Source: Paramecium tetraurelia
Taxonomy: Eukaryota
Assembly: GCA_000165425.1 (NCBI GenBank)
Contig: CT868152.1
Span: forward strand, 434,001 to 498,000
DNA length: 64,000 bases
Direction: 5' to 3'
This document shows, in pieces, positions 31,257 to 38,621 of the stretch. The notes beneath the pieces are model-generated. The model had not been told where the DNA came from, ran no database searches, and worked only from the letters and a program-made list of their open reading frames with translations. The translations under genes and the position numbers were made by a program. Positions within the stretch are counted from its first letter, which is position 1, and each line of letters starts with the position of its first letter.

Positions 31257-32106
31257 ATGAAATATATAGTGTTAATATTTTTACTTTAGCTTTTCTCATT
31301 AAGTTTATCTGAAGTTGTCGTAACACCTAAAATTTAATGCAGAGCATAGGAGTGTGAGGGTGATAACTTCTGTTTTTAAGGGTATTGTACATCTTGTGAA
31401 ATTACTAGAAGATAATGTATTTGATTCAAATTATTCATTTAAAGGGAATCAAGGAAAACCATTATGGGGAACCAAAGTTGGCGAGGCTATTAAAGTGCCT
31501 GCATATTCTAATTTCGGAGATCCAAATGTTTTAGACACTAAGAAAGATGAATTTTTAGAAGACTCTAAAAGAATTTTTGGAGAAGAAGTATATGTCGGAT
31601 AAAAGTAAATTGTTGTATTTATTTGAAGATATTAATGCGTTCAATTTGCCAGACGATTTTGGATCGTACATTATAATTCAACCTTTGGATCTGTTAATTA
31701 TGCTGAATAAATATTTTACCTTTAGCAAGCATATAATTTTAATACAAAGCAATCCTTACAATTAAAGAAATTCTAAAACGGAGATATCCACCCTCCCTAA
31801 TAAGGTGACTTATTGATTTGGAAAAAGGATGAAGAAGAATTTCCTTATGGACATGTTGCAATCGTTATTTCTGTTGAAATGGAATCAAGTTACCCTCATG
31901 TGTTGATAGCAGAATAAAATTATGATTAATCATGGGATGCAAGAAGCTTTTCCAGAGCATTAAGACTTATTAAAGGAGAGAATAATGAAATTACGATTTC
32001 CAATAATAGATAGATCTTCCCAACAAGAGAGGATTTGAAATGTAGAGATACTGAAGTTACATCTTAAGGTGTTATTTTGGGTTGGGTTCGTTTGAATATT
32101 TAATGA
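31257..32106 (+). CDS. Secreted CHAP-domain cysteine amidase (glutathionylspermidine amidase-like)
   Basis: Signal peptide and Cys-rich N-terminal module, then GQKYQCVQFARRFW, GDLLIW, PYGHVAIV, IAEQN, ILGW; two short introns. Confidence 0.88.
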
Positions 32107-33548: not shown

Positions 33549-34553
33549 GAATAGAAAGCCGGGCTGCACCTTGCTTTCTTGTATTTTCTTAATTCATGCT
33601 TTCTCGTTTATTCTCCTTCTGGAGAATTTACTTCTGAACAGCATAATTATTTTTTATCAATTTTATAATTTTATTGACCTAAATATTAGAAATGGTCTTT
33701 AGGCATCTTAGGATTTAAGCTTGAAGAAATTCTATTTTATTAATCAACTCCATTGTTATATATCCTCAAGTCCCAAATCAATTGATTATTCAAATTTCAA
33801 GTTATGCTAACCCAAAGTTAATAAGATTGTTCTTCAATATCCATTAGTAATTATCATTAAAATATCAAAATAAAATGTATCTTTCTTAATTTGATATTAA
33901 CCAATTCAATTTTAGAATACTAATAGATTATAGAGTTGAATAATTTTCTAAATAATGAAACCATTTTTTATTATCATAATCACTGTAGTATTTTTTCGTT
34001 ATTATTAGAATATCTACTTAAATTCATTATTATTAAATGTTGAATTACATCACAAAATATCTTTATTATATTAATTTATTAGATAAAATAAATGAAATTT
34101 ATATGTTATTTTTAAGGAAGGTTAGAAATATACATTCACGATTACAACAGTATTTTCATAAGACTAGGCTTGATAATCATTATTCATAAAGCTCTAGTTT
34201 TGATGAAATACCTTAAAACCTGTTTCTAAAGTCAAAACATCTGTATTATTGTTATACTATTGAAAAATATTTTCTAAATTTAAAGCAAAATAAAACTGAC
34301 CCCCACTTTTTCATTTAAATGATGAACAAACTATTGAAAACAATCCCTCTAGTAAAGAAGCTAAAAGTTATTATCAAAATAAGTGATGTAATGATGTGAA
34401 AATGACTTCAACCATGAGAAGGGTTAATGTATATAAAAGTAAGGAATAATTAGTTTGCGTTGATAATTATTGCTAACTTAAGAAAATTGAATACAATTTT
34501 TGGATTAATCTACAATAAAATATAGATGATATTGGGTATTAGATGTATCCAAA

Positions 34554-37500
34554 TCAATATGTTTGTTAATATAATAATTTCAATTAATTCGTCAAATTTA
34601 TCATTGATTTTATTTCTTAGAAATTGTAATTATACATCTTTTGATCATCTAGATTTTTCGGAATTTTCAAAATCTTTTCTATTTCGTCCAATTTATCTAG
34701 AGTATAAGCTAAGAAACCATCCATATTTATTTATACTTTTGTTAATTTAATAACTTGAATCTTCTGGATTTTTCTAAATTGCTGAATCATAACATTCTAA
34801 TGCCTCTTCAAATCGTGTCATTTAATCTAAAGTATTGCCTAAGAAATCATCCATATTATATGATACCTTTGCTGTTATAATAACGTGAATCTTCTGGATT
34901 TTTCTAAATTGCTGAATCATAACATTCTAAAGCCTCTTCAAATCTTTTCATTTTATTTAATGTTAAACCTAATAAATCACCATCAATTATACCTTTGCGA
35001 TAATAAAATTCAGAAATCTCTGGATTTTTCTAAATTGCTAAATCATAATTTTCCAAAGCTTCATCGGTAAAGTTCAAACTTTCTAGAGGAATCGCTAAGA
35101 AATCATCAAAATGTATTCATACCTTTGTTAATATAATATTATGAATTTTCTGGATTTATCTAAATTGCTGTATTATAATTTTGTATAGCTTCTTCAAAAT
35201 GCTTCATTTTATTTAATGTCGTAGCTGAAAGATCATCTATATTACATTATACCTTTGCCATCATAATAATCAGAATTTTCAGGGTTTTTCGAAATAGCTA
35301 ATTCATATAATTTCAAAGCCTCTTCAAATCTGCGCAATTCAACTAGAGTAAAAGCTAAGAAATCGTCCATTTATAATTATACCTTTGCGATAATAATGCT
35401 CAGAAATTTCTGGATTTTTCCTAATTGCGGAATCAAAATATTCTAATGCTTCTTTGAATTTTTTCATTTCATATAGAGCACTAGCTAAGAAATTATCCAA
35501 ATTATCATACCTTTATTAATATCATATACTAAATTTTATTGATCGTTCTGAATTGCTAAATCTTAATTTTGCAAAGCTTCTATATAACGATTCATTTTCC
35601 CTAATGTCAAAGCTAAAAGATCATCTATATTACATTATACCTTTGCCATTATAATAATCAGAATTTTCAGGGTTTTTCGAAATAGCTAAATCATAAAATT
35701 TCAAAGCTTCTTCAAATCTGCTCAATTTAACTAGAGTATTAGCTAAGAAATAATACATATTTAATGATACCTTTGTTGAAATAATACATTGAATTTTATG
35801 GGTTTTTCTAAATTGCTGAATCATAACTTTGCAAAGCTTCTTCAAAACGATTCAGTTTATATAATGTAGTAGCTATGTAATCATCGATTTTTAATTCTAC
35901 CTTTATGATTATAATAGTCGGTATTTTCTGGATTTATCTAAATTGCTAACATATAAATTTTCAAAGCCTCTTCAAATCTATTCATTTTATGTAATGTAAA
36001 AGCTAAGAATTCATCCAAAATTGATTATACCTTTGTGATAATAATAGTCAGAACATTTTGGATCTACCTAAATTGCTAAATCATAATTTTCCAAAGCTTC
36101 TGAAAACTTTCTCATTCTATCTAGTGTATAAGCTAACAAATCATTCATATTGTATTATACCTTTGCGATAATAATAATCAGAATTTTCTGGATATTTCTA
36201 AATTGCCGAATCGTAATTTACCAAAGCTTCTTCATATCTCTAGACTTCATTTAAAAATAGTAGCTAAGAACTTTCAAAATGTAAATTGTACCTTTGTCAA
36301 ATATAATGCCTTGAATCTTCTGGGTTTAGTTAAATTGCGAGATCAAAATTTACCAAAGCATCTTCAAATTTGGATTAATCTAAATTTGTTTTCAAATATA
36401 TTGAAAAATAATGAAATCGCTAGGTAATCATCTATATTTAATTTTACCTTTGCCAACCATAAAAGTCAGACACCTCTGGGTCCTTCTGAATAGCTAAATC
36501 ATAATTTTCTAACGCCTCTTCAAATCTTTTCATTTTACTTAGAGTATTTGCTAAAATTCATTCATTAATAATACCTTTGATATAATAATACCTGGAAATT
36601 TCTTTGTTTTTATAAATTGCCAAATTTGAATTTTCCAAAGATTCTTCAAATAGATGCATTTTATTTAATGTAATTGCTAAGTAATTATCAATATTGAATT
36701 CTACCTTTGCGATTATAAGAGTCAGATATTTCTGGGTTTTTTGAAATAGCCAAATTATAATATTTCAAGGCTTCCTCAAATCTTTTCAGTATATCTAGAG
36801 TATTTCCTAATAAATCTTCCATAATATAATATACCTTTGTTATTAATAAGGATAGGATTATTTGGATCTTTCTAAATTGCTAAATTATAATATTTCAACG
36901 CCTGATCAAATTTTTTCATTTCGTTTAAAGTATTTGCTAAGAAATTATCCATATTAAATGATACCTCTGCAATTATAATAACATGATTCCTGTGGATTTT
37001 TGTAAATTGCTGAATCATAACATTCTAAAGCCTCTTCAAATCTTTTCATTTTATTTAATGTTAAACCTAATAAATCACCATCAATTATACCTTTGCGATA
37101 ATAAAATTCAGAAATCTCTGGATTTATCTCAATTGCTAAATCATAATATTCCAAAGCTTCATTTAATCTGTTCATCTTCTCTAGAGGAATAGCTAGGAAA
37201 TCATCAAAAAATGGAATCATACCTTTTTTAATATAAAAATAAGCATTTTTTGGATTTTTCGAAACGACTGATTTAATTGGAGCGTACTAATCGAAATGAT
37301 ATATATTAAATCGAATTTTGGTGTTGCAGTACACATTTAATCGAATTTAATTTTTCTTTGCTTATGAATCTTTGGCTAATTTTCTCTAAACTTTATTTAT
37401 TGCTACTTTTAATTCTTTGTTGTACTTTTATTGGCTTTACATAGTTTTTATAGCTATTTGTATTTTAGATTTATTTTTTACAATTCCAAAGCAAGCCATT

Positions 37501-38168
37501 ATTCTTTTTGGATTTTATGAAACAATTAATCTTGAATTATTGTTAAATGCAATAAAATCATAAAAATTATCGCAGATAGATGCTTAGAATTACTTAGATT
37601 AATTAGATAATAAGGTAGATCCGTTTAAGTGACATTTCAAAAGATTTTCTTATTACTACTAAGTATTTCTAATACTAATATTTTCTAAAGAGCATTCTTT
37701 ACAGTCAATCTTCATTTCGATTAATAAATGAAGAGAATTTGATCCACTCTAAATGAATCTCATATCTAAGGCAGTTAGATGAACTAAAAATCTGAGAAAT
37801 TCTATAATTTTCTTATCAAATGATATTTTTATGATGAGATCCTTTTTAATTTCTTCATAATTATCTGTTGAGTAATTTTATTAATTAAATTCATGATCCC
37901 TAATTTATTTGAGAACATCAGTTATTCTCTTAATACTAATTTCTGAATTGAAAGTCTATTCTTTATTAAGCAGCAATAAATTATCGACCTTTTATCTTTC
38001 TATTTACAAAAGGATTTGATTTTGATCTTATGAAAGAAATTCTAGGCAGTCTTAAATTTTCTCTTTTTTTAATACGTAAATGAGGATAGGAAAGAATACT
38101 TTATCAAGATCTTTAGATAAAATCAACACCTTATACAACTCTTCAACTCTCTCCTTTTAGCAATACAT
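34554..38168 (-). CDS. Multi-exon TPR-array gene (about 20 TPRs, three frameshifted central exons) with in-frame upstream WD40/pentapeptide-family-like domain; possibly a pseudogene or two genes
   Basis: Repeat consensus A.TL.KM.RFEEAL..YD.AIQKNPE.S.YY..K. Twenty GT-AG phase-1 introns between 34709 and 37222. ATGs at 37499 and 38168 are in the same TGA-free frame. The 3' end is uncertain. Confidence 0.8.
34709..37222 (-). repeat. Tandem array of ~130-bp units (102-nt exon plus 24-30-nt intron)
   Basis: Donor positions 34736, 34866, 34992, 35122, 35252, 35382, 35510, 35640, 35770, 35900, 36030, 36160, 36291, 36447, 36574, 36704, 36834, 36964, 37090, 37222. Confidence 0.95.
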
Positions 38169-38621
38169 CAACTTTTAAAAAAAAAATATATTGAATTCAA
38201 TCACATTATTATGAGTTTATAAAACAAAATCAAAATGGTATGTTATTTAGGACGACACGTAAATTTTAAGAGGTTTGAGAGATCTATAAATTTTAAGAGG
38301 TAAGAAAGCCCCGAAATTTTAGCAACTTTTACCCAATATCTAGATTCTCAGTTGTGCTTTGAAGGGTGCAGGAGAGTTACACTTTAGGAGGCCAAATTTT
38401 TTTTTGTTTATTATAAATATGGGAAAGAACGAGAAAATCATCATTTAATATATAAATATAGAAGATAACTTATGATTTTTAAGGAGATACAATGTAGATG
38501 TTATATAATTATTAATTTAATTGAAAATTATAAATGTATGTTTATATAAAATAATAAATATCTTAAGATATTTAATTGTTATTAATATCAGTATAAATTA
38601 TAAATGCTTATTTTGATAATT

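What the first reader, a model, noticed from the sequence alone, without database searches (positions are those of the whole stretch)
37500..38168. WD40/pentapeptide-family N-terminal domain fused in frame to TPRs: possible sensor-domain swap
Seen: ATG 38168 opens a TGA-free frame continuous with the TPR exons. It encodes ...KIRDHEFNQQNYS..IIEFLRFLVHLTALDMRFIQSGSNSLHLLIEMKID..LENISIRNT. From recall, this GSNSL..L..M.(V/I)D..ENI.I.NT motif precedes pentapeptide and WD40 repeats in a greatly expanded Paramecium family, some members NACHT-containing. Here the pentapeptide part decays and TPRs follow instead. Established: fungal NLR-like proteins interchange WD40, TPR and ankyrin sensors. Caveats: no P-loop is visible, and frame continuity across the short linker could be chance.
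Basis: partly seen in the sequence, partly recalled or inferred. Interest (0 to 1): 0.7.

Follow-up and report, generated by a model that had tools for sequence, protein, structure and literature searches.

The report
Young chimeric TPR gene in Paramecium
A piece of a gene from a large Paramecium family of immune-receptor-like WD40 proteins has been joined in frame to a tetratricopeptide-repeat gene, giving a one-off, intact but barely expressed hybrid that lacks the nucleotide switch a true receptor would need.

Summary
The fusion is real, but it is not an NLR sensor swap in the functional sense. The minus-strand frame from ATG 38168 runs open into a TPR array. Only 38168-37617 (184 codons) comes from the WD40 family. 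It is the helical segment that follows the winged helix in Paramecium NACHT-pentapeptide-WD40 proteins, taken from a subfamily that had already lost its NACHT domain, and it is cut in mid-pentapeptide. From about 37616 the sequence is the native leader of TPR-array genes, minus their own start codon. Independent DNA contigs bridge the junction. They also show that the array's frameshifts are reference errors, so the gene reads as one 1,020-codon frame with 20 introns. Of 98 family loci examined in the genome, 78 continue into WD40 and only this one is an intact TPR form. Both halves are missing from the four duplicated (ohnologous) segments, so the gene arrived late. RNA coverage is sense but only a few reads, so one transcript is not shown. 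Best reading: a young recombination product of two fast-turnover repeat families, under relaxed constraint. The surrounding NACHT-WD40 and 102-nt-exon TPR families are more interesting than the fusion itself.

The parts
38169..38218 (-). 5' flank shared with WD40-family paralogs (probable donor start region)
   Evidence: L002 and L006 align from 38218, about 50 nt upstream of the ATG; 38140-38600 finds only itself in the genome
37617..38168 (-). 184 codons from a NACHT-less member of the NACHT-pentapeptide-WD40 family: post-winged-helix helical bundle (about residues 1-160) plus the first part of the pentapeptide repeat
   Evidence: 52-61% aa identity to close paralogs; 37%, E 2e-28, to the post-WHD region of full-length L084; AlphaFold mean pLDDT 85.8, eight helices in residues 2-151, residues 165-184 mostly below 50
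37583..37616 (-). Junction: about 10 nt of filler or TPR exon-1 remnant, then a 24-nt remnant of the TPR family's first intron, read through in frame (acceptor AG kept, no GT at donor distance)
   Evidence: Alignment with five TPR-gene leaders; bridged with 0 differences by X1 contig record 7, 37515-38053; the intron-remnant reading is inferred
37223..37582 (-). Native leader (exon 2) of the TPR-array family, leading into the first partial repeat; contains the internal ATG at 37499
   Evidence: DNA profile from five other TPR genes hits 37571-37500, E 8.4e-6; leader found before TPRs in 7 other loci
34709..37222 (-). TPR array: 20 phase-1 introns of 24-30 nt and 19 internal exons, each one 34-aa repeat (102 nt; one of 126 nt)
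   Evidence: Pfam TPR_1; five single bases absent from the X1 contig restore exons 6-8
34554..34708 (-). Last exon and stop codon (TGA at 34556-34554); total frame 1,020 codons
37003..37125 (-). 123-nt tract identical to 35027-34905, spanning exon, intron and exon: recent gene conversion or unequal crossover inside the array
   Evidence: Mismatch list

Best explanation
A young, lineage-specific chimeric gene. SHOWN: the 5' part of a NACHT-less pentapeptide-WD40 gene (start region, ATG, post-winged-helix helical bundle, part of the pentapeptide) is joined in frame to a TPR-array gene at about its first intron, so the TPR gene lost its own exon 1 and start codon. The unit sits at a site where none of four duplicated segments has either half, and it reads as one intact 1,020-codon frame. 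INFERRED: it arose by ectopic recombination or end-joining between two mostly chromosome-end, fast-turnover families after the last genome duplication. It is transcribed weakly from the WD40-family start as one mRNA. The product, if made, acts as a TPR binding scaffold, and the helical domain rides along under relaxed constraint. It cannot signal as an NLR by itself because it has no NTPase.
For: Sharp homology boundary at 37617. Leader homology just downstream, in the TPR frame; 7 other leader-bearing loci have TPRs next and no helical domain before. Junction bridged and array intact in independent DNA contigs. WD40 is the ancestral continuation: 78 of 98 loci, 79 of 150 profile hits, and the closest relatives from a sister species (P0159 at 68%, P0003 at 65%). 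Absent from segments C58, C236, C225 and C446; C58 has 1.1 kb where the window has 6.45 kb. No second copy of the linker in two protein searches. Tip dS about 0.19 and tip dN/dS 0.88 (bootstrap 0.54-1.70); 22 of the 26 paralogs score lower. RNA depth 0-0.67 over the unique linker.
Against: No read or read pair is shown to span the junction, and no splice joint of this gene reached the 3-read threshold, so one mRNA is inferred. An intact 1,020-codon frame, 20 canonical introns and only frame-preserving indels fit selection on the fusion as well as youth. The dN/dS interval is wide and the branch includes time before the fusion. The leader profile hit has a high composition bias (19.5 against a score of 20.9), and three of its five training leaders were first found with the window's own linker.
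Confidence: 0.7

Rival explanations
1. A selected sensor swap: the hybrid is a functional NOD-less TPR sensor, decoy or helper. Its helical domain lets it dock onto full-length NACHT-WD40 proteins, and it feeds them a new specificity.
For: Donor family is NACHT-based. The frame is intact over 1,020 codons and the helical bundle models confidently. The array shows recent repeat homogenisation, and its most variable sites are TPR positions 2, 6, 9, 12 and 23 on a fixed scaffold, with pN above pS at 6, 9, 12 and 23. This resembles fungal NLR repeats (PMC4986451, passages).
Against: No NTPase. Singleton among 98 loci and 150 profile hits. Pentapeptide cut and altered. Tip dN/dS near 0.9. Overall array dN/dS is 0.59, not above 1. 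Near-silent in two poly(A) libraries.
Confidence: 0.15
2. Two adjacent units: a dead WD40-family fragment lying in front of a TPR gene that starts at ATG 37499 from a cryptic start site, with the shared frame a coincidence.
For: An in-frame junction has a 1-in-3 chance. There is an ATG at 37499. Linker depth falls to 0-0.18 in 37522-37672. Decayed family fragments are common (6 of 98 loci look like debris).
Against: The 80-110 nt upstream of 37499 are coding leader in other TPR genes, not promoter, and their start codon lies further 5', in the exon missing here. An ATG at that position is not conserved. No pile of read starts near 37500, though depth is too low to see one. The public annotation models one gene (P0002), which is a prediction only.
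Confidence: 0.13
3. Assembly artefact joining two repetitive loci.
For: Both families are repetitive, and the reference has five single-base errors nearby.
Against: X1 contig record 7 covers 37515-38053 with no differences and more than 100 nt on each side of the junction; record 6 covers 37096-37541. 17 of 24 listed runs hold half or more of the words of 36000-38400.
Confidence: 0.02

Closest known systems
Fungal NLRs with interchangeable WD40/ANK/TPR repeats, including Podospora NWD genes (PMC4986451; abstract and passages read)
   Same: The donor family has a NACHT domain followed by highly similar WD40 repeats; the TPR array shows internal homogenisation and variable sites on a fixed scaffold.
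   Different: Fungal swaps keep the NOD and recur many times. Here the NOD is absent, a pentapeptide spacer lies between connector and sensor, and the TPR form occurs once.
Tetrahymena 90-bp-exon LRR genes and species-specific LRR/TPR/WD40/P-loop genes (PMC6564038; passages read)
   Same: One repeat per symmetrical exon, recent clonal expansion of exons, and the same domain types among young ciliate genes, with an immune role suggested there.
   Different: Here the unit is a 102-nt TPR exon with phase-1 introns of 24-30 nt in Paramecium; the passages seen describe no such fusion.
Paramecium TPR and WD40 repeat expansions noted through duplicated IESs (PMC3464196; passage read)
   Same: Reports expansion or recombination of TPR domains and WD40 repeats in this species.
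   Different: One sentence only; no mention of NACHT, of the connector domain or of cross-family fusion in the passages seen.
Public annotation P0002 (590 aa, labelled P. tetraurelia, 'Tetratricopeptide repeat' protein)
   Same: Already models the N-terminal segment and TPRs as one gene.
   Different: It stops early because of reference errors, reads two introns as coding, and does not recognise the chimeric origin; the corrected frame is 1,020 codons.

Membership tests
NLR / STAND receptor | NACHT or NB-ARC NTPase with Walker A/B | tested here: not met
   No NTPase family in Pfam scans of P0001 and P0002; the ATG lies just after the position of the winged-helix motif
NLR / STAND receptor | Winged-helix motif before the connector | tested here: not met
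   Motif absent upstream in the window locus, present in 23 of 98 family loci
NLR / STAND receptor | C-terminal superstructure-forming repeats | tested here: met
   About 20 TPR units
NLR / STAND receptor | Ligand-triggered oligomerisation and signalling | not testable with these tools
   Needs biochemistry
Paramecium NACHT-pentapeptide-WD40 family (donor of the 5' part) | Post-WHD helical connector with GSNSL motif | tested here: met
Paramecium NACHT-pentapeptide-WD40 family (donor of the 5' part) | Complete pentapeptide repeat followed by WD40 propellers | tested here: not met
   Homology ends at 37617 and no WD40 follows
Paramecium 102-nt-exon TPR-array family | One TPR per 102-nt exon with phase-1 introns | tested here: met
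   18 of 19 internal exons are 102 nt and one is 126 nt after the X1 differences
Paramecium 102-nt-exon TPR-array family | Conserved leader exon 2 | tested here: met
   Profile from five other genes, E 8.4e-6; no hit below E 0.6 in the 39 WD40-family loci of the control set
Paramecium 102-nt-exon TPR-array family | Own ATG in a 37-40-nt exon 1 and a spliceable intron 1 | tested here: not met
   Present in five of five training genes; replaced by the WD40-family segment here
HD2/ARM connector of solved STAND structures | Structural match | tested here: inconclusive
   Best Z 6.1 (rmsd 5.5, 134 aligned, Utp C-terminal domain), within the background range for helical bundles; the assignment rests on position after the WHD motif

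The most novel reading that the evidence does not exclude
Paramecium runs an NLR-like recognition system: dozens of NACHT-pentapeptide-WD40 receptors, a larger set of NOD-less derivatives, and exon-cassette TPR arrays that diversify by repeat conversion. This gene is a captured instance of new specificity being made, in which a TPR array is grafted onto the connector domain to give a NOD-less sensor that pairs with a full-length NACHT partner.
Probability: 0.12. Interest if true: 0.75.

Novelty: new variant of a known kind. Interest (0 to 1): 0.38.

Why it matters
It is a clean, datable example of two expanded repeat-protein families in a ciliate recombining into a new intact architecture, with an intron remnant turned into coding sequence at the junction. 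It also draws attention to a NACHT-pentapeptide-WD40 family (at least 23 loci with the winged-helix motif among 98) and to 102-nt-exon TPR arrays. My nine literature searches found no paper describing either in Paramecium. If the hybrid or the NOD-less members work with full-length partners, this would give an entry point to non-self recognition in ciliates. As it stands, one barely expressed singleton does not show that.

Tried and rejected
Pseudogene by frameshift: the reference has exons of 103, 128 and 103 nt, but the X1 contig lacks five single bases there, and one of one X24 reads agrees at 36404; rejected as reference error, on one DNA run. Second fusion at C24 (L026): a broken, rearranged connector fragment lies about 280-355 nt before a TPR exon across an N gap, and has no leader hit; counted as debris, not as support. 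X19 as a second species or as RNA proof: its contigs are identical to the window, its RNA label is a guess, it also covers upstream DNA (38248-38408), and it passes the junction by only 26 nt; not used. Fold searches of the helical domain gave no Foldseek match at E up to 0.001 and no Z of 8 or more. The Atlas gave only pentapeptide look-alikes, and its structure rows were under TM 0.4. A single-sequence model of residues 1-315 was uninformative (pLDDT 32). Genome searches with the linker protein and with two leader DNAs found only themselves at useful E-values, so the leader census is incomplete. Non-TPR Pfam hits on the N-terminal part and linker (PARP_reg, DUF7838, IgD2_Trs65) were below cut-off. 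No convincing terminal inverted repeats around the insert. Three look-ups of earlier findings were empty. Passages of PMC9004412, PMC3710099 and PMC13059789 were not informative. No complex prediction was run. Branch dN/dS rests on pairwise distances only, so it is approximate.

Full report
Setting. The window reads with the ciliate code and has 24-30-nt introns. It lies at G000:C169:434001-498000. A public protein labelled Paramecium tetraurelia, P0002 (590 aa), is 100% identical over the query, so the public annotation already treats the segment and the TPRs as one gene.

Observation. The minus-strand frame from ATG 38168 is free of TGA to the first TPR intron at 37222 and carries the quoted peptides. 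This alone is weak: the chance of no TGA in the 131 linker codons is about 0.14, and two of the three frames are open there.

The 5' part. DNA 37500-38170 has 42 matches in the genome, self included, and none of the others extends past query base 554, window 37617. Close paralogs are 52-61% identical in protein and continue into pentapeptide and WD40 repeats. Ten of 11 longer database hits are WD40 proteins. A profile search returned 165 proteins, of which the best 150 were classified: 79 WD40, 65 with tails under 80 aa, 5 other, and 1 TPR, which is this gene; 3 have an upstream P-loop. Genomic loci, merged by shared 80-mers, gave 98 groups: 78 WD40 next, 11 neither (5 look like divergent propellers by eye, 6 like debris), 7 at an end or gap, and 2 TPR. 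The two TPR cases are this locus and a broken fragment on C24 across an N gap. Two groups merge near-identical copies. In 23 of the 98 a winged-helix motif lies just upstream. A full-length member on the same scaffold (L084, an open frame of 2,221 codons) has NACHT at 38 bits against a cut-off of 26.7. Its region starting 3-4 residues after HKSIQEF aligns with the window segment at 37%, E 2e-28. The NTPase part of P0021 also resembles NACHT clusters in the Atlas (0.96, NACHT on 52% of members). So the segment is the connector between NOD and sensor, which became N-terminal in a subfamily that lost the NOD. It models as eight helices (mean pLDDT 85.8) with no convincing solved match. Counted by hand, 33 of 39 close paralog loci lie within 20 kb of a contig end; this locus is about 82 kb from the end.

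The junction and linker. Homology ends after the GGATCT at 37617. Bases 37613-37504 match the 5' ends of other TPR-array genes. Five such genes have an ATG, a 37-40-nt exon 1, a phase-1 intron of 24-25 nt, and then the conserved exon 2. A DNA profile of these five, without the window, hits 37571-37500 at E 8.4e-6. In 241,549 control bases it hits three further TPR loci at E below 0.01 and none of the 39 WD40-family loci (best E 0.6). Caveats: composition bias is high, and three of the five were first found with the window's linker. A protein profile that includes the window finds the leader in 7 other loci, five of them training members, each followed by TPRs and none preceded by the connector. 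In the window the intron's acceptor survives at 37583, there is no GT at donor distance, and the 24-nt remnant is read in frame (inferred). The ATG at 37499 lies inside this coding leader and is not a conserved start.

The array. There are twenty GTA..YAG introns with one TPR per exon. The reference has frameshifts in exons 6-8, but an X1 contig covering 36072-37032, with no substitutions, lacks single bases at 36253, 36283, 36299, 36404 and 36457. Without them the frame is 1,020 codons, stop at 34556-34554, against 528 in the reference. This rests on one DNA run and one RNA read. A 123-nt tract is identical between exons 1-2 and 17-18. Across 16 exons dN/dS is 0.59, with an invariant scaffold and the highest variability at TPR positions 2, 6, 9, 12 and 23.

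Reality and age. X1 record 7 bridges the junction with no differences. The duplicated segment on C58 has 1.1 kb where the window has 6.45 kb, and neither it nor the segments on C236, C225 and C446 carry TPR or connector sequence. The unit therefore most likely arrived after the last genome duplication. Two protein searches with the linker included found no other protein covering it (1 of 95 candidates, itself; 6 hits of 849, none over the linker). These searches are word-based, so the absence is moderate evidence. The closest relatives of the 5' part, from a sister species, continue into pentapeptide and WD40. Tip dS is about 0.19 and tip dN/dS 0.88 (0.54-1.70), higher than in 22 of 26 paralogs.

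Expression. Two poly(A) runs were laid, of which about 33% and 42% were read, with 58-nt reads. Of 489 and 819 laid reads only 27 and 50 were at least 99% alike; most are cross-mapping paralogs. Over the unique stretch 37220-37672, depth was 0.24, 0.14, 0 and 0.67, 0.25, 0.18, all in the orientation expected for sense RNA, and zero over 38126-38578. No start pile near 37500 and no splice joint of this gene passed the thresholds. This is a few reads: weak sense transcription, and no decision between one and two transcripts.

Mechanism and verdict. Shown: an in-frame DNA chimera of a NOD-less WD40-family 5' end and a TPR gene lacking its first exon, intact and inserted late. Inferred: ectopic recombination or end-joining between two fast-turnover families, a single weak mRNA, and a TPR scaffold with a passenger helical domain (0.7). 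A selected sensor, decoy or helper is possible (0.15), two separate units less so (0.13), and an artefact is unlikely (0.02). It resembles fungal NLR repeat swapping (PMC4986451, abstract and passages) and Tetrahymena exon-cassette repeat genes (PMC6564038, passages), but it fails NLR membership for lack of a NOD. PMC3464196 notes recombination of TPR and WD40 repeats in this species (passage). Nine searches showed no paper on this fusion or on Paramecium NACHT-pentapeptide-WD40 proteins. The library lacks most subscription journals and no supplements were read, so this does not prove that it is unpublished. The STAND domain order (NOD, winged helix, connector, sensor) and the reading of HKSIQEF as the winged-helix motif are from my own knowledge.

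Noticed in passing
window 34384-34533, + strand: A decayed second TPR-family leader (ATG, early TGA, intron-like stretch, exon-2-like sequence, then a TPR-type intron-like stretch) faces the 3' end of the main gene; leader profile E 3.6e-6 with high bias. Possibly the remains of a convergent or inverted TPR gene.
   Followed up: partly
window 35667-36097: X1 contig record 4 has 27 extra letters against the window, the size of a short germline-limited IES; position not given.
   Followed up: no
window 36253-36457: Five single-base reference errors truncate the public protein model; frameshifts seen in paralogs on this assembly may also be errors.
   Followed up: yes
L084:2665-9327 (G000:C169, scaffold end): Full-length member: long helical N-terminus, NACHT, winged helix, connector, pentapeptide, WD40, in one open frame of at least 2,221 codons.
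   Followed up: partly
L183-L187, L196, L201, L205: Divergent members in which connector and pentapeptide are followed by degenerate propeller-like sequence without frame breaks; probably older, conserved branches of the family.
   Followed up: no
L026 (G000:C24:283176-284277): Scrambled WD40-family debris next to a TPR exon across an N gap at a scaffold end; could be an independent, dead juxtaposition.
   Followed up: partly
L028:4160-4530: Another TPR gene whose leader is preceded in frame by unrelated open sequence rather than the usual short exon 1; possibly a second kind of 5' capture, at a contig end.
   Followed up: no
window 37648-37662: The QQQQE that replaces the family's SLLGA looks by eye like a compensated +2/-2 indel pair, which would hint at selection to keep the frame.
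   Followed up: partly
window 37193-37222, 37067-37090, 34969-34992: Introns of 30 and 24 nt; the first two have no in-frame stop and the third is an identical copy of the second. Such introns are disfavoured in Paramecium (recalled), and the public model reads the first two as coding.
   Followed up: no
window 31261-32106, + strand: Gene with a QCVQFARRF motif resembling CHAP/glutathionylspermidine amidases (recalled); the duplicated segment on C58 appears to carry an extra tandem copy.
   Followed up: no
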